A DNA stretch of 64,000 bases from positions 2,664,515-2,728,514 of the forward strand of contig NW_024037060.1 of NCBI RefSeq assembly GCF_015706575.1, in the 5' to 3' direction. The position numbers and the translations under genes are program-made. Below the pieces are notes generated by a model. That model was not told the DNA's origin. It made no database searches and saw only the letters and a list, made by a program, of their open reading frames with translations. This DNA is from Patiria miniata (lineage: Eukaryota). Shown here one piece after another: positions 4,432 through 60,877 of this stretch. Numbering within the stretch: the first letter of the stretch is position 1; every line of letters starts with the position of its first letter.

Positions 4432-4627
4432 CAGCAGCTCGAGATCGGTGCAATCTGGTCTCTAATTCACTGGTACCCATTTATACTCCTGGGTGGAGAG
4501 AGGCAGTTTTAATAAGGTGTCTTGCCCAAGAACACCAGCACCATGTGCCCTGTCAGGGTTCGAACCCACGTACATGTACCATGGCACATGAGTCCAACAC
4601 CCTAACCATTGGACCAAGGCACAGCAC
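4432..4627 (-). mobile_element. tRNA-derived SINE, copy 1 (sense strand = minus)
   Basis: It shares the region ...cttgcccaagaacac...cagggttcgaacccacg...ccattggaccaaggcac with three other loci. The reverse complement shows a tRNA-like head (GGGGTGCTGTGGTCCAATGGTTA...GGGTTCGAATCC). Confidence 0.6.
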
Positions 4628-22259: not shown

Positions 22260-22378
22260 ATGGCGGGATTCAATTGGATACTTTTACTGTTCGTGTCGTC
22301 TACTTGGACGTGTTGCGTGCGGGGATCGCTGGAACCAAGTAGTCCTACTTCGTCTCAGAGTACAGCCGTTGGTTGCAG
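22260..22378 (+). CDS. Exon 1 (coding part) of MEGF10/Draper-like receptor: signal peptide MAGFNWILLLFVSSTWTCCVRGSLEPSSPTSSQSTAVGC
   Basis: An ATG in Kozak context is followed by a hydrophobic h-region (WILLLFVSS) typical of a signal peptide. A donor gcag|gtagga lies at 22378/22379. The overlapping 82-aa ORF in the track (22150-22398) is in another frame and has no signal-peptide character. Confidence 0.45.
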
Positions 22379-27282: not shown

Positions 27283-27854
27283 TCCTGGTGTTTCTGGCAA
27301 TGGTTACAATATGCGCTGCAGCACCTAGACCCTTATAAAGGTGCTACACATAATTGATAAGCCGGATTATTGTGATTTGTTTGTATATAATTTTTCAGGA
27401 TTTTTTTGTTAAGTTTCTTTGAAGAATGATAGCTGGATGCTAAATCGGAAGGGTTTCAACTTAAACTTCCAATCAAAAGTTTTAAAAACTGGACTCGGAC
27501 GATTTTTTTTCTCGAGTGAATTGCACCTGAAAAATCTCCAGTTCAGAAACATTAAATACAAATCTGGGAAAATAAGCTCATCTAAATAATCAAATGCTGA
27601 TGCGAAATGAATATTAAATTGTTTTTTCTATTATGCGGCCATGGATTTCACGATCGGTTCAAAGAAAATCGTACAGCATGTAATAAGATTTGGGTGCTAA
27701 ATGAGCCGAGAATGGTGAATTTTGTGTCGGAAACAATCATTATTGTTGGATCGTGGTAAAAAAAACGGATGCAGGTAACAGCACGAGTATGGAGAAAGCT
27801 GTAAAATTAACAAGACTCAAATTTTAATGTTCCTATTTCTGTTTTTTTTTTCAG

Positions 27855-27940
27855 TGATGCAGAGGTCTATCTAAAGCAAGACTGGGACACATTCACTTCC
27901 TGTTGCAAGGCGCTATATCCCAACCAAACATGTCCCATAG
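27855..27940 (+). CDS. Exon encoding the C-terminal end of an EMI domain (DAEVYLKQDWDTFTSCCKALYPNQTCPI)
   Basis: The acceptor is tttttttttcag|TGATGC and the donor is CCATAG|gtgagt. The motif CC-x3-Y-x4-C-P-I matches the 'CCPGYYESGDFCIP' end of the EMI domains of MEGF10, MEGF11, PEAR1 and Draper. The phase is compatible with the next exon. Confidence 0.6.
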
Positions 27941-29513: not shown

Positions 29514-29721
29514 CTTGTCCGTGCCGAAACGGGGCCGAATGCTCGCCGAACAACCGAACCTGCGCCTGCAAACCGGGATGGGTCGGCCCCCAGTGTCAAA
29601 GGTCATGTCGGGACAGTGATAATCACACATACGGTCCGGGCTGTAAGCGGAGCTGCCGCTGTGGTCCGGACGCTACGTGCGAACCGATAACCGGCGTCTG
29701 CGAATGCGTCCATCCTGAAAA
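29514..29721 (+). CDS. EGF-like exons 1-2 (CPCRNGAECSPNNRTCACKPGWVGPQCQRSCRDSDNHTYGPGCKRSCRCGPDATCEPITGVCECVHPE)
   Basis: The acceptor is ttttcgtcag| and the donor is GAAAA|gtgagt. The cysteine pattern C-x-C-x2-GW-x-G-x2-C and YGPGC-x3-C-x-C are the laminin-type EGF repeats diagnostic of the MEGF/Draper/CED-1 family. The phase joins the flanking exons without stops. Confidence 0.75.
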
Positions 29722-30124
29722 GTGAGTTCCAATGTGGTCACGTGATTTGTCGTCCAGTATAGACATTATGCACGGCAGCCATCTTTGAGGGCGGTGCTCA
29801 GTCACTGAGTGTGTTTTGTTCAGCCCGTCATTGAAATATTTGTTTATTCTTCGTTACAATATCAGTTACGATAGTTTTCTGATACCTTTCCCCCGCATTT
29901 TCTTAATTATTTCTTTAAATAGTAATGTATTGGTTCATTTATTTATATCATGCATCTATCCTATCTTTATCGATATCTTCTGTTTTATTTATATCAACTG
30001 TTTTAAAACAATATCAATCAATAGTCAATACGCACGGAAGGCAAAAATAACTGAACGAATCGCTGATGTTCTGTTTTCGTACAGGAATAACTTTTTGCTA
30101 TATATATTTTTTTGACGGTGGCAG

Positions 30125-30234
30125 TTGTACAGCGCGTTGCTCTAGAAATCGTTATGGTCCAACATGTCGTCAAAAGTGCCGATGTAAGAAGACGGGCGAG
30201 TGTGATCAAGTGACCGGGGCATGTATCGTGACAG
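30125..30234 (+). CDS. EGF-like exon (NCTARCSRNRYGPTCRQKCRCKKTGECDQVTGACIVT)
   Basis: The acceptor is ggtggcag| and the donor is GACAG|gtatgt. It is in phase with the neighbouring exons and carries the MEGF-type YGPxC...C-x-C...G-x-C pattern. Confidence 0.75.
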
Positions 30235-30771
30235 GTATGTCCGATTCCAACTTGTGGGCGGATCCTGGTGGGAGGGTGTGGATGGGTTAATACCTGTGTA
30301 GGAGTTTAATGCTCGAAAAAAAGGGATTGGGAGAAGCGTGTCCATTCAACAGCATTGATATTACTACTGACTTAGGATTGATTTTAATCAATCCTAAGAA
30401 TATAATCTCTCCGATTTCTGATTCTTCTCCGAAGAAAATCCAAACAAGAATCTGTAAAAAAATAATGAAATATTGCAAAGTCAGTGAGTGCAGTGAAAAA
30501 TTCGGCATTGGTGTGGAACAAAGCGGCTGATGGAGTCCAACTGCAAAAGGTGCAAAAATTTGTGAAAAAGAAGGACATAAAGAGAAAAATCCTCAATCAA
30601 ATATCTTAGCTGTTGTGTCCAAAATCGGACGGAAATCAGAGTGAAGAACATGACTTTATTTTCTTTAAAAGCAAAAGGAAAAAGAAATGCCGAATGAGAT
30701 GGATTCTCATCTCTTGGAAAACAAAGATCAAATGCACAATTTTTTTTCTTCGATTTCGTCCACTGCGAATA

Positions 30772-30986
30772 GATGGCTCACCGTCGAGCTGCGGCTGTTT
30801 GAACGGCGGAACCTGCCGATCTCACGGTAAGCCGTGCCGGTGCCCGGCCGCTTGGACGGGCCGTCTTTGCGACGTTCCTTGCCCGTCGGGATACTACGGA
30901 GATGACTGCTCGATTCAGTGTGAGTGCGGAGACAACTCGACTTGCAGCCGGTCGACCGGGCTGTGTGAATGTACGACTGGAAACAA
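30772..30986 (+). CDS. EGF-like exons (DGSPSSCGCLNGGTCRSHGKPCRCPAAWTGRLCDVPCPSGYYGDDCSIQCECGDNSTCSRSTGLCECTTGN)
   Basis: The acceptor is gcgaatag| and the donor is AACAA|gtaaga. The repeat reads C-x-C-x2-AWTG-x2-C followed by a second laminin-EGF. Phase 1 entering and phase 2 leaving are both consistent with the neighbours. Confidence 0.75.
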
Positions 30987-31231
30987 GTAAGAACAGATCA
31001 ATGGCATTACTGATGAAGTGGAATTGTTTGAAGTATAGGGGAGGGGTGGAGCCTGTGGAAATCAGGGGCGCAACTCTCCGCACGTGTAGGCCTATTGACC
31101 CTACAATTTTAAGGAGTGGAGTAATATGGGAAGTAAAAAAAAGTAATATTATGGCGATTATTATATTGCTTTACTCTTAAGTATTACCCCTGGCCCTATT
31201 CATCAGGCGACGAAACCACTTTTTTTTTCTG

Positions 31232-31400
31232 CAGCAGCTCGAGATCAGCACAATCTGGTTTCTACTCTCACATATACCCATTTATAATGTACCCCTTGGT
31301 GGAGAGAGGAAATTGTAGTAAAATATCTTGCTCAAGAACACAAGCATCACGTTACCAGGCTGGGTTTGAACCAGGACCAATGGACCACGGCACTCCACAG
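31232..31400 (-). mobile_element. tRNA-derived SINE, copy 3, in the intron between EGF exons
   Basis: It has the same head and body as copy 1 (cagcagctcgagatc...ggtggagagagg...gggtttgaacc...tggaccacggcac). A T9 run on the + strand at 31222-31230 corresponds to the A-tail of the - strand element. Confidence 0.6.
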
Positions 31401-31737
31401 TCATGTTGTCCCATTATGCCGCAATTGGAAGTGGCAACATTGTCATAAAGCGACGAAATAAGAGAAAGTCATCATGACAACTCCAGTCTCCAGTTATTTA
31501 TAGTAGTGAGAGTTCATCCCCCGAAGCGTGCCGTTCGTTTGGTTTCTTCATGAGACTGTTTCCGACCCAATCCAACGACTTGTCACTCTTTTTGAAATAC
31601 TGCAACGATGTTATCTACCACAGGAATTTGAATCATCGTGACTTGACATAAGTGAAATCTCTTTGAATTTCGTCCCTGAAATACCCCAATGAAAATGATG
31701 GAAGTGAAATTTCTTAAACTTTCACTATTTTCCCCAG

Positions 31738-31892
31738 GTACTCGTGTGTGGGCCGGTGTCCGGAGGGACTGTGCGGTCCGCGGTGCTGGGACGAATGCAG
31801 ATGCCCGGCCGGTCTGGTGTGTCACCAGTGGACGGGAGATTGCGAATGTCGGACAGGCGATTGCACCAACAATCTGATTGGAGCAGCAACAG
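31738..31892 (+). CDS. EGF-like exon (KYSCVGRCPEGLCGPRCWDECRCPAGLVCHQWTGDCECRTGDCTNNLIGAAT)
   Basis: The acceptor is ttttccccag| and the donor is AACAG|gtacac. It is cysteine-rich in an EGF pattern and its phase is consistent with the neighbours. Confidence 0.75.
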
Positions 31893-35820: not shown

Positions 35821-36238
35821 GCCTAGATATAAGCACAGCTACTGTCACCACACCACGTACGACCCAACCTACGCCACTAGAGACTAACGCCACAACTGGT
35901 ACGCTTCCCCCACCCACTTCAACCACCGCCCTGTCTTCACTTCACACCAAGCAGAAAACAACGGTCATCCCCACATCAACCGACGGGTCAACGACACGAC
36001 ACGCGGCCGGGAAAAGCGACGACCGGCCGGCGGCGACGGGCGAGACCGGCCCGGTAGCGGATGGGTCGCCGCAGCGGAGCGACGATGACGCAGCCAAGCC
36101 AGCGGGAAATGGGTTCTATCCGACGGCGCCGTTTTGGGGTGTGGTGGGTACCATCGCGGTGTTGCTCCTGGTCGTCGTCGTATTGCTGTTACTCATACTA
36201 AAGCGACAAGTGTCATCGTCCCGATTGGCATTGACACG
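35821..36238 (+). CDS. Exon encoding a Thr/Pro-rich mucin-like stalk, the transmembrane helix (FWGVVGTIAVLLLVVVVLLLLIL) and the basic stop-transfer KRQVSSSRLALT
   Basis: The acceptor is tcaccaaaag| and the donor is ACACG|gtaagt. A 23-residue hydrophobic stretch is followed by KRQ. The upstream T/P/S-rich segment (TTPRTTQPTPLETNATTGTLPPPTSTT) resembles an O-glycosylated stalk. The phase joins the EGF exon upstream and the cytoplasmic exon downstream. The 162-aa ORF in the track starts artificially at an internal Met. Confidence 0.7.
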
Positions 36239-39080: not shown

Positions 39081-39157
39081 GCAACCGAAGATTTGCCGGC
39101 AAGACAACGTTTACGAAACAGTGGAGGATCTGGGCAAAGGCGCAGCTATCGAACAAG
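39081..39157 (+). CDS. Juxtamembrane cytoplasmic exon (RQPKICRQDNVYETVEDLGKGAAIEQ)
   Basis: The acceptor is ttttcaatag| and the donor is AACAAG|gtaagc. Only this reading frame keeps phase between the TM exon (phase 2) and the terminal exon (phase 1). It contains a DNVY motif. Confidence 0.55.
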
Positions 39158-42100: not shown

Positions 42101-42420
42101 CGCAAACCGCAGGACTATCGACCTGAAAAGACCGACTTTAGAGCAAGATGCCAACCACGCGAACAGTCTGTGGCTTGGTCGCTGACGTGACTTTTAACGC
42201 TGATGATTCTCAGTAGAATCCAACAGGATGTTCGATTTGTCAGCACAGTTCGTGGGGTTTTGCTGAATGCTTTAAAAATAGAATCGGGATAGTATATAGT
42301 CTGTGCCTTACATGAGCAGTTCATGCATTATCAACATTAATCGTTTCAGAACACTTCCGCACTTAGTTTGGAGAAATAACTAGTTAAAAGTGCCATTTCT
42401 TCTATTGTTTGTTTCAAAAG

Positions 42421-44078
42421 TTATCAAGACACCTCCACCGCTACCAGACATGTTTCAACGAGGAGGCAGCACGAGATCTAGCGTGCACAGCTACCACCAC
42501 AGGCCGTTATCCGTGCATTCACCACTGCCGACCATGGACGCCCCACTGCCGGCCAGCGTGGCGGCCATGGTGTGCAACTACGGTGGTGGCCCGCCGGTAC
42601 CGGGCGGTACATCGCGCCGGAGTCTCATGGCCGAGTGGCGTCCCCACGGAGTGCGGGACTCGCAATCAAATCTTATAGATGACCCCAAGACCCAGAATCG
42701 CAGTGGCAAAGCGCTGAGCTGTATCTACAACGGTGGTATTATGATCGAGGATGATTACGCAGATCCTTTTGATACGATCGCACCGACCGGTAACACGGGG
42801 AACCGACCAGCTGGCTACTTACCGATGATTCTAGGACAAGACCAAAGACGGAGCCAATCCCCGGTTCCGAGGAGCAGGACACCGCCAAACCTCTCACGGG
42901 GAAGTTCTCCTGTGACAGTACCTAGGAGTGACTCTCCCATGGGGGTTCAACGATGCGATTCTCCAATGGCGGTACAACGATCTGATTCCCCGATGACGGT
43001 TCAACGATCCGATTCCCCGATGACGGTTCAACGCTGCGAGTCCCCGATGTCTACCCAGCGAAGCTCGTCTCTCATGAACGTCCAACAAAGGTCTGCCTCC
43101 CCCATGACTGTTCACCAAAGTGAACCCAATTTGCATCTCCAGCAGACTGACTCCAACATGAACTTCCATCCCAGTAACTCTTCTGTAGATCTCCGTAAGG
43201 GATTCATGGGAAGTCCATCCAGCTCTCCTCAGAGACAGAGTGCATCCGGATCCCCAAGCTTCGATCCATTTTACTTTACCCTCGAGCAGGGAGCCAAGCC
43301 AGACAGCCCCAAGGGTCCTGATGATGATTACGATGAGCTGGAGCCACAGTCACCCATCAACTCTCCAGCAGGAGGGTTACCATTCGACGGCCGGTCTGCA
43401 TCATCTCGTACAAGCAGCGAGCGCTCCAGGGCGTCATCTCATGCTTCGTCTCGAGGCTCCCTCTCCGCCAACTCCCCCACCTTAGCGTCTTCCTTCGGCT
43501 CTAGCCCGCGCGATGCCGAGATGTTCGCGGTGTTAGACCGCAGACCGGAGACACCCATCAGGCCGGATCTGCCGCGGCGACTTGTGTCCAGCAACGTGTA
43601 CGCGTCCTGCGGGCCTCCCAAGACGTCCTCCACACCGGCGGACGATGGGATCTACTCCAGGTTGAACAGGACCCCATCCCAACGGATGGAGCTACCGACC
43701 GCTCCGCGTGGAGTAGCGGACCTGGACATGAGTACCTACGGTAGGCTGCAGCGTAGCTACTCGGCCAAAATTCCCGCCCGTAACACCACCGATGGCCCGT
43801 ACGGGAAGCTTCCCCAGCGTAGCAGGTCAGCGATGGTTAAGAGTCATCAAAACGTGAGCGGATCGGCGTCGGCCGTGGATTGCGAAGCGGGAGAATGGGT
43901 GCCTGCCGAACTGCACCCACGCCTCGGGCCCCGGAGAACCAAACCGCCTAACGTGACGGAACCACGGAAGAAATCTCGCTGGAGTATCAAGGGCAAGCTG
44001 GGCAAAAAATCGCCAGCGGAGATGGATTTTGACTGCCCATCATCGACGGCAACTCTGCCCTACCCTGGTGATTGGTAG
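42421..44078 (+). CDS. Terminal exon: ~550-aa Ser/Pro-rich disordered cytoplasmic tail with 6-7 tandem nonapeptide repeats (S/C-D-S-P-M-x-V-Q-R) and three YxxL motifs; stop codon at 44076-44078
   Basis: The 562-aa ORF in the track is this exon. The acceptor gtttcaaaag| at 42420 falls inside the ORF and is in phase with the preceding exon (g+tt gives Val). The composition is typical of MEGF10/PEAR1/Draper tails (S/P-rich with multiple tyrosines). The tandem repeats and the YSRL, YGRL and YGKL motifs are read directly from the sequence. Confidence 0.75.
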
Positions 44079-47516: not shown

Positions 47517-48048
47517 GACAGTCTTATATAGCGCAAAACATAACCGAGGGAAATCTCAATGCGCTTAACAAAGCAAACATAGGTAAGCAAAAATTACAGT
47601 GAATGAGAGTAGGCCAATTGAAACAGATGGGATTTGAGGTTAGATTTGAAGTTGTCTATGGTTGGAGCTGTTCGAAGTGGGGATGGAAGGGCATTCCACA
47701 ACTTGGGAGAGACGTGTGAGAATGCCTTTGAGCCGTATGATTTGGTCCTTGGTATAGTTGTTGTGAGGAATCCCTGGGAAGATGAACGGAGAGATCTGGG
47801 AGGATGGTGTGGTTGTAGCAGCTCAGTAATGTAGCTTGGAGCAGTTCCGTTTAGGGCCTTGAAAGTAAGCAGAAGGGTTTTGTAGCGAATGCGCTGCCGG
47901 ATGGGCAGCCAGTGGAGGGATTTGAGGGTTGGAGTGATGTGGTTGCATTTCTTGGAAAGGGATACCAGACGGGCAGCGGAGTTTTGGATGCGTTGGAGTT
48001 TGTCAATTTCTTTGTCTGGGAGGCCAGTAAGTAGGCAGTTGCAGTTAT
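47517..48048 (-). mobile_element. 5'-truncated CR1/L2-type LINE 3' fragment (ORF2 C-terminal tail and 3'UTR) with a (TAT)n tail at 47494-47516
   Basis: The 176-aa - strand ORF contains the conserved LINE ORF2 C-terminal signature LHWLPIRQRIRYKTLLLTFKALNGTAPSYITELL...RSLRSS...SKAFS...PKLWNALP...FKSNLKSHLF. The element ends in a trinucleotide microsatellite, as CR1/L2 elements do, and it is inserted precisely between units of a 57-bp minisatellite. Confidence 0.7.
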
Positions 48049-48918
48049 TACATGACTTTTCCCAATGATTTTTCCCTTGCAATATCAACTTTCCATGACT
48101 CCTTGTACAATCACAAAATTCCATGACTTTTCCTGATACATTGTAGCTTCAAATTTCAGGATTTTCCCATGTCTGTGGGATAGGACATTCCAACAAGTTG
48201 AGAGTGATTAAGTAGAGTCCATTGCGAGTCCTCACAATTCCAACAATTTCTCACAAGTCCATCACGAGTCATCCAGGATCAAGTCAACTCACAAGCTAAT
48301 CACATGAACTGTGAAAGACCGATTCCTTTGTTACTGTACATCCCCTGTTTCTTGTGAGCTGACTTGTAATTTAACTGGATTTGCGATGGCCAACTTCAAC
48401 ACTGCAAATTAAAATCTACAATGTATAATTACAAGAAATAAAAGCAAGGACTGTAGTTATAAATATACAAAAATAATTATAGGTGGGTAGGTGGAGCGGG
48501 TCGGCTTTTTGTTCCCTTCATTGTTCCGACACTGTCTCAAAACGCTTGAAGCATGACCATGCTTAAAGGCTCATTTGCATTTATCCAAAAGTAACGTACC
48601 AAATTATTATCAAAAGCTTACTTGGATAAAAGATTGTACTTGTATTAAGCACCCCATGAAATTACTCCGTCTGGCTTGCTGTCATTAAGAAGAAATCAAG
48701 AAATGTAGGTGATTTCCAACGATCAGTCAATTGACTGACTTTTGGAACGAGGTACACACTGACCAAATCGTGTTTCGAGATCACAAAGTTGTGCATGGTT
48801 TTTCACTGTTTCCTCGAAAAGTGGAATATCCACCAAGCTGAAACGTCAACAGTTTAGGCTTTGAAGAATCTTCTTTGGATTTGAGTGGGTTTTGGTATTG
48901 GAAATGAACAAATTGCAT

Positions 48919-50515: not shown

Positions 50516-50955
50516 AATGTCATGGGGTTTTCCCTCCCTCCGGTAAAACTTTTATTTCCTTCCTTGTCTTCTACCAATGATCCTAACTGGATATTTAGTT
50601 GAAACACTCTGTGGAATGACAAATGATAATAAACAAAAGGGGGAGGACACAGCAACAAAATATACAGTACCGAAGTCAATACATTAAGATATGTTAAAAT
50701 TGTTCAAGGTTTGAAGCAACTCACAACATTTGGCAACATTTTCTCATTGATGATTGTTCTCACAATTTTTAAAATCAAAATTAAATTGAAAGGATTAATA
50801 ATAAATTGTATCAAGAAGGGAATGTAAGCAATTAAAAAAAAAAGGAATTCAGCCCGAGTCTTAACATCAAGCCCATGTACAGTTCAAGTATCTGAGCTCT
50901 ACAAAATTCAGCAAACTCATATAAAATGTGAGAACAACAAATACCTAGCAGCTTT

Positions 50956-51052
50956 CATAGGTAGCAGATGTGTCGTTCAAAGCCACTGGAAGACTCAGCG
51001 TGGAATGGTAGATTGTCGTTTGGATCATCTTCATCGTCAGAACTCTCATACC
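50956..51052 (-). CDS. Candidate last coding exon (WYESSDDEDDPNDNLPFHAESSSGFERHICYL*), with the stop at 50956-50958
   Basis: The acceptor is tctgtttag|, the exon is in phase, and it carries an acidic Ser/Asp tail. A - strand AATAAA-like signal lies at about 50553, followed by a C38 run (G38 on the transcript strand). Confidence 0.45.
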
Positions 51053-51427
51053 TAAACAGATAACGGATGCAATTACCAACAATAGAAATCTGTATTTCTG
51101 TTACTGTAAACAATTTAGTACAGGTCTTTCGTTCTGAGAAATTCTCGTGTATGTATTCAGCTCTGTAAACCTTACATCAGAGATTTATTGCAGCTTTGTG
51201 TGTGTATGTTGCAGAATCCAAAACTGGCATAAACACAACAGAGAGAGTATTTACTTAGGTTGTTTAAAGGTGATATACAACATTTGCTTTTGTTGTAATT
51301 TTCAGAAATGGATGGATTTGGGGGTTAGTATTTTATAGCAAATTTTGTTACACTGACCTGTTTAAAGTTTAAAGGGGGAAGAAACAATGAGTCAAAGTTG
51401 TGATAATATCAATAACTTCTGAACTTA

Positions 51428-51516
51428 CCAGAGTTTCTCCTGACTGTCATCTTTACAGCGACTGCTGGTTTCGCCATTGCTATCGATTCCATTAAATTCC
51501 ATACTTACAATGTCAG
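51428..51516 (-). CDS. Candidate penultimate exon (TDIVSMEFNGIDSNGETSSRCKDDSQEKL)
   Basis: The acceptor is ttttttacag| and the donor is ACTCTG|gtaagtt. The frame is open and in phase with 52012. Confidence 0.45.
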
Positions 51517-52011
51517 TCTGTAAAAAAACAACAAGTACTCTTACTACAGTTTCCTACAAATTCTTTCCGTTAATGGACATTACGACTTTTCCTTTTTGAA
51601 TGTTCCTGTGTGTCAAAATAGCTCCAGCCATGGAAAAAGGGTTAATAAAAGATTAATATTTTGGCTTAAAAGATCTACTCTTGAACTAGCAAGGGTACAG
51701 TGTCATTTCTCCAGCCCTACATTATGGACTTCAGAATCCCAAAAGTGCTGCAAAAAGGTCCAGTCTGGAACGATTTCAGAAAATCAGAACAAATACTCAC
51801 ATATTTTTTCTCATACTACCACTTTTTAAAAATAAGGGGGTCAAAAATATTATATTAGATTAAAAAGAAATATTCAGCCATTACTGGAGTTGGTTTGAAC
51901 TAGTTGAAAAACAGCTTTGTGTACATTAAACATGACTTTTCCTCATTGTCATCTCTGAATTTGGTATGTGCTAAACTGCACAAAATGAGCTCACAAAAAA
52001 AAAAACCTTAC

Positions 52012-53593
52012 CAGGTCCTTTGGAAAACTGCTGTTCTCTTCCTCATGTTGTGGTATTGCTTTCCTCATTTTGTGGCTGTCCGATCCTTCGTGGTCACCCT
52101 CATCACTGCTGTAGCTGAACAGGCGGAAATTCCTGCCACCGAGTGGCGATTTGTCATCAGGACTCATAGAGTCCTTAGACTTCTTGGCATCTGCCTCGCG
52201 TGAGCTTGCTTCTCTTTTGTCACTCTTCTGAGTATCTTTCTTCTGACTCTTGGAATCATCTTTGGTGGACTTCACCAAATCGGGAGCCTCGTAGATGGGC
52301 GATAAGTCCCGGCGTTTGTTAAGCGGAGGCTTTGCGTTGGTTGAAGGTGCTACCGGATCGGATTTAGCCTCTTTGTTGTCTAGGGCAAACGTGATATGCT
52401 TCTCTTGAGACTTTTTGGTCTGGGACTTCTTGGAGAGGATGCCTCCTCGAGGAGGCTGCCTGACGGGGCGGGGAGACTCATCAGCATCGCTCTCCGACCA
52501 AGGGATGTCTGAGGACAAGCTACTGACGCTGGAGTTGGACCCGACCCGCTGGTGAGCAGACAGCTCCTGGGTCTTGCTGGTTGCCGGGGAGGGCAGGAGC
52601 TCTAACTCCTCCCGGTTGCTGATCTTGACGATAACCTTCCCTGATTCGGGCTCTCCGAACTCATTAGTGGGCTGAACCTTCCTCATGAAGCCGGGCAAGG
52701 CCTGCTGGCAGTGCTTGGGATTCTGCGAGTAAAGCTTAGCTGAGATCTGGTGAAGGTTATCAGAGATCTGCGGGAGTTTTTCGAATGTTGGAAGCAGGTA
52801 AGGCATGGGGCTTCCTTGCTGCTCCCATCCCAATGGTACCGTCCTATCCTGGGATGTATTCGGATCAGTTTTGTCCATACAGTGTGGCTCCTCATCTTGG
52901 TTCCTCAGGACAGTGTCTGGTTTCTTGGCCTTGTCCTCTGCCCCGATGGAAGACTCAACTCTGAGGGAACTCTTGGAGTGTTTTGAGCAAAACTGCTCGT
53001 AAGAAGGTGGAGAGGTGACAATACGTGCACTATCTCCTGAAGACCTGAATTGTTCATGGAGGGTTTTTTCGACAGTCGACTTAACACTGAGACCTTGTTG
53101 CAAAGGCTCACTGTACTCAATAGACGCCTGAACATGGTGAACATTCGCCTTAGACTGCGGCAGTTTTGGATTTTTACCGTCGTTCCTTGATCCAGTAATG
53201 CCTCCTGTCATATATTGCACACTTGGGTTATCCTTCGTTTGGAAGTCTAGTGAGTGGGGAAGACTAAACCTTTGATCTTGAGTGTCTCTCAAAGGGTCAC
53301 TGGGTTTAGATCCAAGTAAAGAATTCTGTGTTACAGGTTGTGCCGTTTCCATTTTGCCTTCATTTGCAGACATCCCCCTTGGTGATAGTTCCTCGTTCCA
53401 CGATGTCTTGCATTTCTTAGCTGAGTGACCCGGGGAGGACTGTACCACTCCCGTTTGTAGGGAGGATGAGGATGAGCTGAGGGATGAGGTGTAACTGCTG
53501 CTCAGGCTGAGGGTGTCTAGGTTGTCAGAGGCCAGACTAGGGCTGGGGTGATGGAGGGTGGATATCTGCTGGTTGACCTCACTCAAACGAGCT
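52012..53593 (-). CDS. Very large Ser-rich low-complexity exon (~527 aa) of the ankyrin/coiled-coil gene
   Basis: This is the interior of the 599-aa - strand ORF in the track. The acceptor is ttactatttcag| at 53593, and a strong donor GACCTG|gtaagg lies at 52012. Alternatively, read-through to the in-frame stop at 51991 would make this the last exon. Confidence 0.65.
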
Positions 53594-54047
53594 CTGAAAT
53601 AGTAATTATAGTAACTCATAAAAAAGGAAACTTGGTTCATGAGTTCAAAACCTGATGGGGAACATGATGATTGTGTCCTTGGGAAAGACACTTTACTAGA
53701 ATTGCATCTTTCAACCCAAGAGTATAAATAGGTACCTGTGAGGGTAGAGACCAGATTGCATTGCTCTTGGCTGCAGGTAAGTGGTCTCATGGCCTGATGA
53801 ACAGGGGTAATAACTGTAAAGCGCTTTGAGACCTACCTTTGGTGGAGAGTGCTCAAGCAACACACATTATTATTATTATCAAATCTCTTGTCTAGAGCTA
53901 CTGTCTCAGTCTGCGACTATTACAAATACATGGGTGCATGCTGACAGTAGACATAGCCATAGCACTGGAAGCCTGTGGACACGGCCTCTTGATGAACAAA
54001 CAGAAAAGTTAACTACAAGTCTGAACTGAAATTGAAAATACAAATCC

Positions 54048-57425: not shown

Positions 57426-58091
57426 TGCCTTTACGTACAGACTAGCACCACAAATAAACACATTGAAACAACATAATCTGTGGACTCTGTGCGCAAGTAC
57501 CCCCTCAACGGTAAGAAAGGGAGAGTTGTAGGAGACCACTGGGGAGCCATTTGAACGTATTGCCGACGACGCCTGCTATGGCTTTGTGAACCTTCATGAA
57601 TAAACTTAGTCGTGCATACTTCGCGCTATACACGCGCGGACCAGAACGAGCACATTGTGTGTCCGGTCCACTGGGCTCTCAAAAGTAGTCGAGGGCGCTC
57701 TCTCTCTTTGCAAACGGAGCCCATAGTAATCCACCTGTTGTCTGTACAAACACAGACAGTCCAAACTTCAGTCGACTTCCCTAAGCATGCCTTTATGTAC
57801 AGACTTACACCAACAGTCACATCACACTTCTAATAAGCACTATAAATTCCATCAACAGACAACCGCAAGTCACTGGTAGAGCTGGCTCACAGATCTTCTA
57901 CAGTCAAGGCAAAGCTAAGTGATGTTACTAATAACAGTCACAGCCTATCAATCAAACACTGTGGATGGACCAATCAGATCAAGACTAGGTCAGGTGACTA
58001 TGGTGGCTCAGTCAAAGTCACAAGCACTGTGAGAAATGTACACGAACCAAAGGTGGGCGGAGCTTATGGTCAAATCAGAAACGGTCCATAC

Positions 58092-58330
58092 CTGTAGGCA
58101 GGAGAGATGCCCATATTTGGCAGCCAGGTGGGCGGGGCTATTGTTGCTATGGTCTGTCTGATCCAATGTGATATCTTGCATCTGCATGTGTTCTAGCAGC
58201 CAGCGTAGGCAGGTTTCCTGGCCGAATCGGGCGGCGAGGTGAAGCAGTGACCAGCGGTGGTCCTGGGTGTGTAGCTCCGAGGCCGAGCCGGGAAGCTCAG
58301 CTAGGCACTTGACGCAGTCCACCTGACCAT
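58092..58330 (-). CDS. Ankyrin-repeat exon (HGQVDCVKCLAELPGSASELHTQDHRWSLLHLAARFGQETCLRWLLEH...SPAHLAAKYGHLSCLQ)
   Basis: The acceptor is tcaatcacag| and the donor is CCTACAG|gtatgga. It contains two ankyrin repeats and overlaps the 104-aa - strand ORF in the track. Confidence 0.7.
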
Positions 58331-59026: not shown

Positions 59027-59904
59027 CTACGGGAAAAACAGAAATTATACATGATGCTTAGGGAGTGTCTCAAAACGAAGAATATTTGAGTGTTCAAAAG
59101 AGATTTTTTTGATACATATACGTCACATATATAATTTTTTTTGCGAACCAGTTGTTGGAAAAGAATGGGTTGGCCATCATCCCGAAATGAAGAAACAATT
59201 AAAAAATTTTAATAAAAAAATTCAATTTCAATAATAACATAAACAAAAAATAACTTACAAAATATTCTTAAATCTAAATAAATACCATCTCTTTATATTT
59301 GCAATTATTGCAAATTCCATGGTTTACTTGACAAGTTTTCAAATAAACATCAGGTAGTTCTTAAATGACTGACTAGAAAAAGTGCTACTTTATTTGATTT
59401 TGTGTGACGGCTGCCCACCACTTTTTGAAAAGTTTTGTCAACCATAAAGCAGAAAAAGAATGCTAACCATAATACATACATATATACGTGTACGTATTTC
59501 ATGGAATGGATGTGCAAAGGCTTGTCAGCACATGCTATTTCCATTGTTGTGTTGCCATCTCATATCGGAAAATTTTATGTATTACTTCAAGAGCATGGAC
59601 TAATCAGTTGATTTTATTGTTATACCTCTAAGAATGCAGAAAAGTAGATAGATTACAAAGTGGGGGACATGGCTTCTACGTTCACCCTTCTGAAACACGC
59701 AATATCCACCACAAAGTAATTCCTGAGATTTCACTGATTTGGGCATATATTCAGGGTCCTTTTGCTACCCCTGTTTTATTAAGATTTTGTTGGATAGATC
59801 TGGTTGGATCCAAGAATTATAGGGTTAACAACCATTTGTCAAATACACCTACTGATAAAGTTTCTGTTATGCAATCAGCAAATACCGCAAATCTGACAAC
59901 TCAC

Positions 59905-60877
59905 CAGGACCTGCCGGTCGCCACGTGCTGCAGCTTGTATGAGTTGTTTATGCAAGGTGTTGTCCCTAGCCCCGGGGCTAAGAGGTGTCGCTACAGCAAC
60001 GGATGACATCTGACCTCTAGGCTGTGCATTATTGTCTGGTACCCTGTCTCTTTGTTGCTGTAATGATGTTTCGGCTACAGTTTTGCTGGACGAGGATGCC
60101 GAGCTCATTTGAGTCTTCAAAATCTTGGCCTGCTGTTTGGCAATTCGTTCCCTGTCTCTGTCCTCTTTGTCTCGCTTCTTGTTCCGGTCTTTCAGTCTGG
60201 TTAGGGTTCTCTTAGCGTCCTTATTGTCTTCGTCCGATCCTGAAGCTCGGCTTGTGAGGTGATGCTGGGCCTTGTTGTTCCTCAGAAGATTAGACATGAG
60301 AAAGCGGACGCTCTTCCCTCTCGGGACCTTCTGTTTGGTCCTGATTGGGGAAAGGTCGCTAGACGCCAGACTGGACGTCAGGCTGCCGTCGCGGGACTCT
60401 GTCGTGCTAATCGATGAATTCAGACTTTCTTGATCCTCACTTGGGCACTGTACATGATTGACTGCGATACTCTGTTTTGCCGTTGCGCAAGTTGAGATGT
60501 CGTTGGGTTTATCCCCATTTCCTTCTCCATTCGCTTCAAACGCCAAGATAAACTGCATGAGCTCCTCCGAGTTAACGTCAATGCACAGCTCCTCGTCCGA
60601 TAGCACAGCATCCGAGGACTCCCCCTGAACAAAAGCATCCAGCAGGGCTTCGTTTTGGGCCACCTTGGCGTCCGAGAACCCCTCAGTTTCTCGAGGGTCC
60701 TTTTCCCATGTGACATTGTTGTTGTTGCGCCCACGGCTGGGTTCCAGTTCCTGCGATTTATTCTTGGATGATTTGGAAGACAGCAGCAGCTTTTTGAAAT
60801 CTTCCTCCAAGGATGATTTCCGAGGCCCTTGCTTTGATTGGTTGCTCCCTGATGTCGCATTTCTTTGCTTGTGGCCA
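59905..60877 (-). CDS. Large low-complexity exon (Ser/Lys/Asp/Glu-rich, KDRNKKRDKEDRDRERIAKQQAKILK) ending in the start of ankyrin repeat 1 (LHKQLIQAAARGDRQVL)
   Basis: This corresponds to the 311-aa - strand ORF in the track, whose 'M' is a TTG. The true exon begins at the acceptor tttttctaag| at 60877 and ends at the donor GTCCTG|gtgagt. The phase joins exon 2. The 172-aa ORF in the alternate frame is rejected. Confidence 0.7.

What the first reader, a model, noticed from the sequence alone, without database searches (positions are those of the whole stretch)
42924..43130. Tandem 27-bp/nonapeptide repeat array in the cytoplasmic tail (SDSPMxVQR x 6-7)
The coding sequence of the tail contains near-identical 27-nt units (gattccccgatgacggttcaacgatcc). 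They encode RSDSPMGVQ-RCDSPMAVQ-RSDSPMTVQ-RSDSPMTVQ-RCESPMSTQ-RSSSLMNVQ-QRSASPMTVHQ. Each unit carries an S-P (proline-directed kinase) site and an acidic/Ser cluster. I do not know of such an internal repeat array in MEGF10/Draper tails. It may be a recently expanded, copy-number-variable phospho-regulatory or docking module.
Basis: seen in the sequence. Interest (0 to 1): 0.6.

Follow-up and report, generated by a model that had tools for sequence, protein, structure and literature searches.

The report
Conserved Ser-Pro nonapeptide repeats, receptor tail
The 27-base repeat is real and codes for about eight copies of a nine-residue Arg-x-x-Ser-Pro motif in the disordered cytoplasmic tail of a sea-star EGF-repeat receptor that resembles class F scavenger receptors; the array is old, kept by selection and only slightly variable in copy number, so it is a tidy but fairly ordinary likely phosphorylation module.

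Summary
An in-frame 27-nt tandem repeat lies at 42924-43115, with three decayed units upstream from 42849. It encodes R-[S/C]-[D/E/S]-S-P-M-x-V-Q seven times.

It sits in the last exon (42421-44078) of a nine-exon, 1019-aa type I membrane protein gene at 22260-44078 on the + strand. The nearest named relative is Acanthaster planci 'uncharacterized protein LOC110974573', so the window comes from a sea-star-like echinoderm.

The gene is not MEGF10/Draper-like. It has six EGF-like modules, no EMI domain, no NPxY and no ITAM. Its architecture and best solved-structure match point to SCARF1-type class F scavenger receptors.

The array is not a recent expansion. All three comparison sequences carry it. 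Synonymous sites between units are saturated (pS 0.77) while the peptide is kept (pN 0.26), and the tail evolves at dN/dS about 0.12. Only one unit pair (42978-43031, one synonymous difference) is a recent duplication. Acanthaster instead triplicated a different unit.

Best reading: a disordered multisite array of proline-directed phospho-acceptor sites with Arg at -3. Phosphorylation itself is untested. Interest is low to moderate.

The parts
22260..22359 (+). Exon 1: start codon and signal peptide (MAGFNWILLLFVSSTW...)
   Evidence: tblastn of A. planci XP_022082005.1 (P0024) against the window; splice model. The donor of this exon is the least certain junction.
27815..27940 (+). Exon 2: N-terminal Cys-containing segment (SDAEVYLKQDWDTFTSCCKALYPNQTC); not an EMI domain
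   Evidence: 63% identity to P0024 residues 24-64; no Pfam EMI match.
29514..31892 (+). Exons 3-6 (29514-29721, 30125-30234, 30773-30986, 31738-31892): six EGF-like modules of the C-x-C-x-N-G...G-x-C-x-C type
   Evidence: Cys-pattern scan; weak Pfam EGF matches; 61-79% identity to P0024; GT/AG junctions; best PDB sequence match is SCARF1, 8hna_B, E 9.5e-11.
35827..36238 (+). Exon 7: Thr/Pro-rich mucin-like stalk and transmembrane segment (FWGVVGTIAVLLLVVVVLLLLIL, about 36132-36200) followed by KRQ
   Evidence: Translation; conserved in L001 and P0024.
39081..39157 (+). Exon 8: 77-nt cytoplasmic micro-exon encoding QPKICRQDNVYETVEDLGKGAAIEQ (conserved Y-E-T-V)
   Evidence: Conserved block against L001 5500-5640 and P0024 residues 438-462; splice sites.
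42421..44078 (+). Exon 9: 552-codon cytoplasmic tail, stop TAG at 44076-44078. 16% Ser, 12% Pro, predicted disordered.
   Evidence: Open frame. 72% amino-acid identity to A. planci in the BLASTP pair and 76% in alignment A2; 59% and 55% to the two metagenome sequences in A1, 60% and 56% in A2. dN/dS 0.10-0.15. AlphaFold2 mean pLDDT 39 with no secondary structure. Composition.
42849..42923 (+). Decayed 5' units of the array: RSQSPVP(RS), RSRTPPNLS, RGSSPVTVP
   Evidence: Register and translation. RGSSPVTVP aligns with SSPVTL units in L001 and L002 and with RCSSPMTVQ in A. planci.
42924..43115 (+). Core array: six 27-nt units in register (42924-43085), one extra codon (43086-43088), seventh unit at 43089-43115. 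Consensus R-[S/C]-[D/E/S]-S-P-M-x-V-Q.
   Evidence: consensus over 26 units from four taxa.
42978..43031 (+). Young duplicate pair: two RSDSPMTVQ units that differ by one synonymous base (TCT / TCC)
   Evidence: 26 of 27 nt identical; sd 1, nd 0. A. planci has only one such unit and instead three RCESPMSVQ units.
43059..43085 (+). Unit with Ser-Leu in place of Ser-Pro (RSSSLMNVQ). The loss is shared with A. planci (RSSSLMNIP); L001 and L002 keep the proline.
   Evidence: 24 of 27 nt identical to the A. planci unit at L003 19651-19677; alignment.

Best explanation
The repeat is a genuine coding tandem array of about eight to ten nonapeptides (R-x-x-S-P-hydrophobic-x-hydrophobic-Q). It lies in the intrinsically disordered cytoplasmic tail of a sea-star type I membrane receptor. 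The receptor has six EGF-like modules, a mucin-like stalk, one transmembrane helix and a 580-residue Ser/Pro-rich tail, which is the architecture of class F scavenger receptors (SCARF/SREC).

The array arose before the four available lineages split and has been kept by purifying selection on the peptide. Its middle units turn over by occasional single-unit duplication or loss.

The most likely function is a multisite phospho-acceptor module. Each unit offers one Ser-Pro site with Arg at -3 and hydrophobic residues after the proline. This context is preferred by Arg-directed CMGC kinases such as DYRK and is acceptable to other proline-directed kinases. Eight or so sites at a fixed 9-residue pitch would let the tail integrate kinase activity in graded steps, or bind phospho-Ser-Pro readers multivalently. 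That in turn would modulate the neighbouring conserved endocytic and signalling motifs (two DPF, several YxxL).

Shown here: the anatomy, the reading frame, the conservation, the selection, the predicted disorder and the motif enrichment. Inferred: that the serines are phosphorylated, by which kinase, and with what consequence.

The confidence of 0.55 is for the whole statement including the phosphorylation function. For the anatomy alone (real, coding, conserved, selected array in a SCARF-like receptor tail) I put it at about 0.95.
For: Reality and frame:
- lag-27 identity 0.64 against 0.33 +/- 0.016 in shuffles, unique in the window.

Gene and topology:
- a nine-exon model with GT/AG junctions giving 1019 aa. 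It is collinear with A. planci XP_022082005.1 (1017 aa).
- synteny with L001 on both sides.

Conservation of the array:
- all four tails carry it.
- The odd extra residue before the last unit (Q or E) is shared by the window, L001 and L002.
- the 3' units are positional orthologues of A. planci units (24/27 and 20/27 nt).

Selection:
- between units within the window, pS 0.77 and pN 0.26.
- window against A. planci, whole tail dN/dS 0.12; repeat region pS 0.55 and pN 0.16.

Motif:
- across 26 units, S4 26/26, P5 24/26, R1 24/26, hydrophobic at position 6 26/26.
- R-x-x-[ST]-P occurs 10, 8, 7 and 7 times per tail against about 1.1 expected; 0-2 of 20000 shuffles reach the observed count.

Disorder:
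- AlphaFold2 mean pLDDT 39, no secondary structure.

Kinase context:
- PMC3677093: DYRKs were first described as preferring Pro at P+1 and Arg at P-3. DYRK1A prefers Arg at P-2 to P-4, and the P-3 Arg sits in an acidic pocket.

Receptor class:
- best PDB sequence match is SCARF1.
- PMC6028831: SCARF1 and SCARF2 have several EGF-like domains and an unusually long Ser/Pro-rich tail of unknown signalling role.
Against: - There are no phosphorylation or expression data for this protein. The A. planci entry is a computed RefSeq model named 'uncharacterized'.
- One unit has lost its proline (Ser-Leu) in both the window and A. planci and has still been retained. So something other than the Ser-Pro site, such as spacing or the hydrophobic positions, is also constrained.
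- Ser-Pro sites in disordered regions are common and kinase consensus matches are weak predictors. PMC3677093 itself stresses that DYRK specificity is loose.
- The disorder prediction rests on a four-sequence alignment.
- The SCARF resemblance rests on promiscuous EGF-like similarity and on architecture. The tail has no detectable homologue outside these four sequences, and MEGF10 and Draper ectodomains did not appear among the PDB hits, so that comparison cannot discriminate between the families.
Confidence: 0.55

Rival explanations
1. The array is a passive disordered spacer. It is low-complexity filler that sets the distance between the membrane-proximal and distal tail motifs. The unit similarity would be a by-product of duplication and gene conversion, not of selection on a motif.
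For: The tail is predicted to be fully disordered. Unit number differs among taxa with no obvious cost. One unit lacks Ser-Pro yet persists. Tandem repeats are common in disordered regions (general knowledge).
Against: Synonymous sites between units are saturated while R1, S4, P5 and the hydrophobic positions 6 and 8 are nearly invariant across 26 units from four taxa. In L001 and L002 the DNA repeat is no longer detectable but the peptide repeat is. Gene conversion would leave the DNA similar, whereas here the peptide is kept and the DNA is not. The repeat region is as constrained as the rest of the tail (pN 0.16 against 0.12).
Confidence: 0.2
2. The units are phosphorylation-independent docking motifs. 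For example, R-x4-hydrophobic-x-hydrophobic resembles the basic-hydrophobic core of MAPK D-motifs. An array of them would recruit several copies of a partner.
For: R-x4-[ILVM]-x-[ILVF] occurs 7, 7, 4 and 3 times within the array in the four tails. The hydrophobic positions 6 and 8 are about as conserved as Ser-Pro, and they are retained in the Ser-Leu unit.
Against: The stricter ELM-style D-motif pattern, which needs two basic residues, is not met by the units (at most one incidental hit per tail). The loose pattern is very degenerate. Ser at position 4 is the only fully invariant residue (26/26), which a pure docking motif does not explain.
Confidence: 0.15
3. One reading: a recently expanded, copy-number-variable module in a MEGF10/Draper tail.
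For: One unit pair is nearly identical (26/27 nt). A. planci has three near-identical RCESPMSVQ units (23-24/27 nt). Window and A. planci carry about two more central units than L001 and L002.
Against: The array as a whole pre-dates the split of all four taxa (dS of 2 or more between the window and L001/L002). Units are mutually saturated at synonymous sites. The gene fails the MEGF10/Draper features tested: no EMI, six rather than about 15-17 EGF-like modules, no NPxY, no ITAM.
Confidence: 0.1
4. Assembly artefact or non-coding minisatellite.
For: None found. It is considered only because two adjacent units are nearly identical.
Against: The array spans under 300 nt, and only 54 nt of it are near-identical. 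It is in frame within a 552-codon open frame in 40% GC DNA. It is present in three independent assemblies of other taxa and evolves under dN/dS of about 0.1-0.15.
Confidence: 0.01

Closest known systems
Class F scavenger receptors SCARF1/SREC-I and SCARF2/SREC-II
   Same: Type I membrane protein with several EGF-like modules, one transmembrane helix and an unusually long Ser/Pro-rich cytoplasmic tail of unknown signalling role (PMC6028831). The ectodomain's best solved-structure sequence match is SCARF1 (8hna_B, E 9.5e-11).
   Different: No sequence similarity between the tails was detected. The exhaustive profile search found whole-tail homologues only in A. planci and one metagenome cluster. 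As far as I know, no regular nonapeptide array has been described in SCARF tails. A mucin-like stalk is present here. Orthology was not established.
MEGF10 / Draper / CED-1 engulfment receptors
   Same: The same style of EGF-like module (C-x-C-x-x-G...G-x-C-x-C), type I topology, and Tyr-x-x-Leu motifs in the tail.
   Different: No EMI domain. Six rather than about 15-17 EGF-like modules. No NPxY and no ITAM. Total length 1019 aa, of which 580 aa are tail.
Tandem proline-directed phosphorylation repeats in disordered regions: neurofilament-H/M KSP repeats and the RNA polymerase II CTD heptads (own knowledge)
   Same: Short units repeated head to tail, each with one Ser-Pro, in a region without fixed structure. 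Unit number drifts between species while the motif is kept.
   Different: A different unit (9 residues, with Arg at -3 and Met/Val after the proline), far fewer copies (7-10), and a location in a receptor tail. Phosphorylation here is unproven.
DYRK-type substrate consensus R-x-x-S/T-P (PMC3677093)
   Same: Arg at P-3 and Pro at P+1 in 22 of the 26 units compiled. A small or hydrophobic residue follows the proline, as in the consensus peptide RARPGTPALRE.
   Different: This is only a motif match. P-2 is not Pro, and many other proline-directed kinases could use the same sites.
14-3-3 mode I site R-S-x-pS-x-P
   Same: R-S-x-S begins many of the units.
   Different: Pro is at +1, not +2. The regex finds no mode I site in any of the four tails.

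Membership tests
MEGF10 / Draper / CED-1 | N-terminal EMI domain | tested here: not met
   A Pfam scan of the exon translations, the reconstructed ectodomain and A. planci P0024 at E up to 1 gives no EMI match. The N-terminal segment has only three Cys outside the signal peptide.
MEGF10 / Draper / CED-1 | About 15-17 EGF-like repeats | tested here: not met
   Six modules in exons 3-6. No further Cys-pattern segments anywhere in the 64 kb. The A. planci orthologue has the same count.
MEGF10 / Draper / CED-1 | NPxY (PTB-binding) motif in the tail | tested here: not met
   The regex finds none in any of the four tails, including the juxtamembrane exons.
MEGF10 / Draper / CED-1 | YxxL motifs / ITAM (YxxI/L-x6-12-YxxL) | tested here: inconclusive
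   Five conserved YxxL/V motifs (YETV, YFTL, YDEL/V, YSR/KL, YGRL), but no pair has ITAM spacing.
SCARF (class F scavenger receptor) | Type I protein with several EGF-like modules and a single transmembrane segment | tested here: met
   Signal peptide, six EGF-like modules, and a transmembrane segment followed by KRQ.
SCARF (class F scavenger receptor) | Very long Ser/Pro-rich cytoplasmic tail | tested here: met
   About 580 residues after the transmembrane segment. The tail exon is 16% Ser and 12% Pro. The family description is in PMC6028831.
SCARF (class F scavenger receptor) | Sequence relationship to SCARF1/2 closer than to other EGF-repeat receptors | tested here: inconclusive
   SCARF1 is the top PDB sequence hit (E 9.5e-11), ahead of Tie2 and an unnamed EGF-like protein. 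MEGF10 and Draper did not appear among the PDB hits. The large protein search with the ectodomain returned nothing.
SCARF (class F scavenger receptor) | Ligand binding (modified LDL, apoptotic cells) | not testable with these tools
   Needs binding assays.
Tandem proline-directed phosphosite arrays | Head-to-tail short units, each with S/T-P | tested here: met
   Ser-Pro in 24 of 26 units across four taxa at a 9-residue pitch.
Tandem proline-directed phosphosite arrays | Located in an intrinsically disordered segment | tested here: met
   AlphaFold2 pLDDT of 32-37 across the array and no secondary structure. Caveat: shallow alignment.
Tandem proline-directed phosphosite arrays | The serines are phosphorylated in vivo | not testable with these tools
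   Needs phosphoproteomics or kinase assays.
14-3-3 mode I binding site | R-S-x-pS-x-P | tested here: not met
   No match in any tail. Pro is at +1.

The most novel reading that the evidence does not exclude
The array is an echinoderm-restricted, evolvable phospho-rheostat on a SCARF-like phagocytic receptor. It offers eight to ten equally spaced R-x-x-S-P sites, and their number, changed by single-unit gain and loss between species, sets the kinase threshold at which the receptor's DPF/YxxL endocytic and signalling motifs are engaged. That would give class F-type scavenger receptor tails, whose signalling role is still unknown, a concrete and dissectable regulatory element.
Probability: 0.2. 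Interest if true: 0.4.

Novelty: new member of a known kind. Interest (0 to 1): 0.27.

Why it matters
It matters modestly. If the sites are phosphorylated, this would be a clean natural example of a short linear motif array in a receptor tail where age, selection and unit turnover can all be read from the sequence. It would also offer a handle on the unexplained long Ser/Pro-rich tails of SCARF-type receptors, in an animal group used for studies of innate immunity and regeneration. It does not bear on a long-standing open question, and tandem Ser-Pro repeats in disordered regions are a familiar kind of feature. The main practical gains are two corrections: the gene is SCARF-like rather than MEGF10/Draper-like, and the array is ancient rather than recent.

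Tried and rejected
- **Large protein search, three queries.** The whole tail gave only two metagenome proteins and missed the 72%-identical A. planci protein. The ectodomain and the non-repetitive first third of the tail returned nothing. So I could not get a wider panel of sea-star orthologues, or named MEGF/SCARF hits, from that tool.
- **Exact look-up of the window's tail protein.** It is not on record.
- **Naming the two metagenome relatives.** Paper searches for GCA_014845345 and JACSEG found nothing. The genome-contig scan found no relative. The metagenome scan only re-found JACSEG010002394.1, which shows that record is a metagenome contig.
- **Other database scans.** Rfam over the whole window gave no match. 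Pfam on the tail gave no family.
- **The 20 weaker hits of the exhaustive profile search (P0004-P0023).** They match only the repeat part of the profile. All are unrelated proteins, and nearly all carry 9- or 18-residue tandem repeats of their own. I rejected them as homologues.
- **Motifs considered and rejected by regex.** 14-3-3 mode I, NPxY, ITAM, PP1 RVxF, the full CDK site S/T-P-x-K/R, the MAPK P-x-S/T-P site and the strict MAPK D-motif are absent from the units.
- **PEST degron.** I considered it and dropped it from my knowledge of the motif rule (no test run), because each unit is bounded by Arg every 9 residues.
- **The 91-codon minus-strand ORF over the repeat (42894-43169).** It is a by-product of the repeat having no stop codons on that strand. 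All conservation is in the + frame.
Full report
**1. The observation**

The stretch 42924-43130 reads as reported. In the frame of the long open reading frame 42390-44078, six 27-nt units lie in perfect register from 42924 to 43085. They encode RSDSPMGVQ, RCDSPMAVQ, RSDSPMTVQ, RSDSPMTVQ, RCESPMSTQ and RSSSLMNVQ. One extra codon follows (CAA, 43086-43088), then a seventh unit, RSASPMTVH, at 43089-43115.

Three decayed units precede them: RSQSPVP(RS) from 42849, RSRTPPNLS at 42870-42896 and RGSSPVTVP at 42897-42923. This gives ten S/T-P sites spaced about nine residues apart.

The periodicity is far beyond chance:
- Tandem Repeats Finder gives period 27, 3.9 copies, 86% matches and score 149 for the best-preserved core.
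- The repeat finder shows 27-nt spacing.
- Identity at lag 27 is 0.64. The maximum over all lags in 5000 codon shuffles averaged 0.33 +/- 0.016, and none reached the observed value.
- No other place in the 64 kb reaches lag-27 identity of 0.6.

**2. The gene**

The window is eukaryotic DNA with 40% GC.

An exhaustive profile search with the tail found one annotated relative. It is Acanthaster planci (crown-of-thorns sea star) 'uncharacterized protein LOC110974573', XP_022082005.1 / XP_022082006.1.

Mapping that protein onto the window and choosing GT/AG junctions gives a nine-exon gene on the + strand:

| Exon | Coordinates | Content |
|---|---|---|
| 1 | 22260-22359 | signal peptide |
| 2 | 27815-27940 | N-terminal segment |
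| 3-6 | 29514-29721, 30125-30234, 30773-30986, 31738-31892 | six EGF-like modules |
| 7 | 35827-36238 | Thr/Pro-rich stalk and transmembrane helix, followed by KRQ |
| 8 | 39081-39157 | micro-exon, ...RQDNVYETVEDLGKG... |
| 9 | 42421-44078 | 552-codon tail |

The product is 1019 aa, against 1017 aa in A. planci. The tail is cytoplasmic by topology: signal peptide, a single transmembrane helix, and basic residues after it. The tail is 72% identical to the A. planci tail.

Two further relatives come from metagenome assemblies. They are P0001 on ENA ERZ26222911 (L001) and P0002 on JACSEG010002394.1 (L002). JACSEG010002394.1 was also re-found in the metagenome collection. They are 59% and 55% identical to the window tail.

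L001 shares the transmembrane exon, the micro-exon, the tail exon and downstream minus-strand exons with the window, all in the same order. It is therefore an orthologous locus of another echinoderm-like animal. The species of the window itself could not be named.

**3. Not MEGF10/Draper**

- Pfam finds only sub-threshold EGF matches and no EMI domain.
- There are six EGF-like modules and no others anywhere in the window.
- The tails contain no NPxY and no ITAM.
- The best match among solved structures is human SCARF1 (8hna_B, E 9.5e-11).

The architecture is several EGF-like modules, one transmembrane helix and a very long tail with 16% Ser and 12% Pro. This is how SCARF1 and SCARF2 are described, and the signalling role of their tails is still unknown (PMC6028831).

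I therefore call the gene SCARF-like in architecture. I do not claim orthology, for two reasons. EGF-like similarity is promiscuous. The tail also has no detectable homologue outside these four sequences among 1.84 billion representative proteins.

**4. Age and evolution of the array**

All four tails carry the array at the same place, between the conserved GY(L/F) segment and the conserved D-x-N-M-N segment.

The ends of the array are positionally orthologous:
- The window's RSSSLMNVQ matches A. planci RSSSLMNIP at 24 of 27 nt.
- The last unit matches at 20 of 27 nt.
- RCESPMSTQ matches the A. planci RCESPMSVQ units at 22-23 of 27 nt.
- The irregular extra residue before the last unit (Q or E) is shared by the window, L001 and L002.

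The middle of the array differs between lineages:
- The window has two RSDSPMTVQ units that differ by one synonymous base (42978-43031).
- A. planci has one such unit but three RCESPMSVQ units, with a two-codon insertion.
- L001 and L002 have about two fewer central units and lack two of the decayed 5' units.

The array is therefore old, and its centre turns over by single-unit duplication and loss.

Within the window, units differ at 77% of synonymous sites, which is saturation, but at only 26% of non-synonymous sites. In L001 and L002 the DNA periodicity is no longer detectable although the peptide repeat is plain. Gene conversion would keep the DNA alike. Here the peptide is kept while the DNA has drifted, which points to selection on the motif.

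Between species the whole tail evolves at dN/dS 0.10-0.15. The repeat region is about as constrained as the rest: pS 0.55 and pN 0.16, against 0.60 and 0.12, for window against A. planci. This also settles that the exon is coding in this frame.

**5. What is conserved in a unit**

Counts over 26 units from the four taxa:

| Position | Residues |
|---|---|
| 1 | R 24/26 |
| 2 | S 12, C 6 |
| 3 | D/E 13, S 7 |
| 4 | S 26/26 |
| 5 | P 24/26 |
| 6 | M 18, V/L/I 8 |
| 7 | T/S 19 |
| 8 | V 18 |
| 9 | Q 18 |

R-x-x-[ST]-P occurs 10, 8, 7 and 7 times per tail, against about 1.1 expected from shuffling. Between 0 and 2 of 20000 shuffles reach the observed count.

AlphaFold2 on the four-sequence alignment gives mean pLDDT 39, with 32-37 over the array, and no secondary structure. 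This is consistent with intrinsic disorder, with the caveat that the alignment is shallow.

Around the array the tails conserve two DPF motifs and five YxxL/V motifs: YETV, YFTL, YDEL/V, YSR/KL and YGRL. From general knowledge, DPF motifs bind the AP-2 appendage and YxxL/V motifs serve as sorting or SH2-docking sites.

**6. Mechanism**

The best-supported reading is a multisite phospho-acceptor array.
- Pro at +1 restricts the site to proline-directed (CMGC) kinases.
- Arg at -3 together with Pro at +1 is the context first described for DYRKs. DYRK1A prefers Arg at P-2 to P-4, and the P-3 Arg binds an acidic pocket (PMC3677093).
- Eight to ten such sites at a constant pitch in a disordered tail would allow graded charging or multivalent engagement of phospho-Ser-Pro readers, next to the endocytic and docking motifs.

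These steps are inferred. No phosphorylation or expression data were available.

A point against a pure Ser-Pro explanation is that one unit became Ser-Leu in the common ancestor of the window species and A. planci, and it has been kept since. So spacing or the hydrophobic positions 6 and 8 are also constrained.

Rivals:
- A passive spacer. This is disfavoured by the pattern of conserved peptide with diverged DNA.
- A phosphorylation-independent docking array. The loose R-x4-hydrophobic-x-hydrophobic pattern fits, but the stricter D-motif pattern does not.
This is true for one unit pair only.
- An artefact, which is excluded by conservation in three independent assemblies.

**7. Comparison with known features, and novelty**

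The feature works like the known tandem Ser-Pro phosphorylation repeats of disordered regions, such as the neurofilament KSP repeats and the Pol II CTD (own knowledge). It has its own nonapeptide unit and sits in a receptor tail.

The profile search returned no other protein with a homologous tail. Its weaker hits are unrelated proteins, nearly all with 9- or 18-residue repeats of their own.

I rate it a new member of a known kind. It is real, conserved and neatly analysable, but not surprising to a specialist. Interest is about 0.27.

Noticed in passing
window 39081-39157: A 77-nt cytoplasmic micro-exon encodes ...RQDNVYETVEDLGKG... The R-Q-D-N-V-Y-E-T-V core is identical in the window, A. 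planci and L001. It looks like a conserved tyrosine motif (pY-E-T-V type SH2 or sorting site) set apart on its own exon.
   Followed up: partly
window 43959-44009: A polybasic segment lies near the C-terminus (EPRKKSRWSIKGKLGKK). It is conserved as PRKKFR[WF]SL[KR]GKK in the other three tails. It resembles PKC-substrate or membrane-binding basic effector segments.
   Followed up: no
window 42753-42776 and 43263-43286: Two DPF motifs (EDDYADPFD and DPFYFTLEQ) are invariant in all four tails. An acidic Y-D-E-L/V motif (DDDYDELEPQSP) is also conserved. These are candidate AP-2 or sorting signals flanking the repeat array.
   Followed up: partly
window 47594-48124 (-): A 176-aa ORF (...LQRIQNSAARLV...LHWLPIRQRIRYK...) looks like the C-terminal part of a retrotransposon protein. 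A 45%-identical copy lies in L001 2625-2972, upstream of its transmembrane exon. Pfam gives no match.
   Followed up: partly
window 4466-4599 and 53641-53804; L001 19135-19521: A short interspersed repeat (translating as ...GTHLYSWVERG... in one frame) occurs twice in the window, in opposite orientations, and once in the metagenome locus L001. It is probably a SINE-like element shared among these echinoderm genomes.
   Followed up: no
window 50954-51520 (-) and 51991-53790, 58008-58322, 59875-60810 (-): There is a downstream gene or genes on the minus strand. Two small exons are conserved in the same order in L001 (18579-18792 and 19620-19712). The window also has a 599-codon Ser-rich ORF, an ankyrin-repeat-like ORF (...LHLAARFGQETCLRWLLEH...AHLAAKYGHLSCLQ...) and a 311-codon ORF. 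I did not analyse these further.
   Followed up: no
protein search tools: The word-indexed protein search missed the 72%-identical A. planci protein, although that protein is in the collection. It also returned nothing for two non-repetitive queries. Negative results from that tool for eukaryotic queries should not be trusted.
   Followed up: yes
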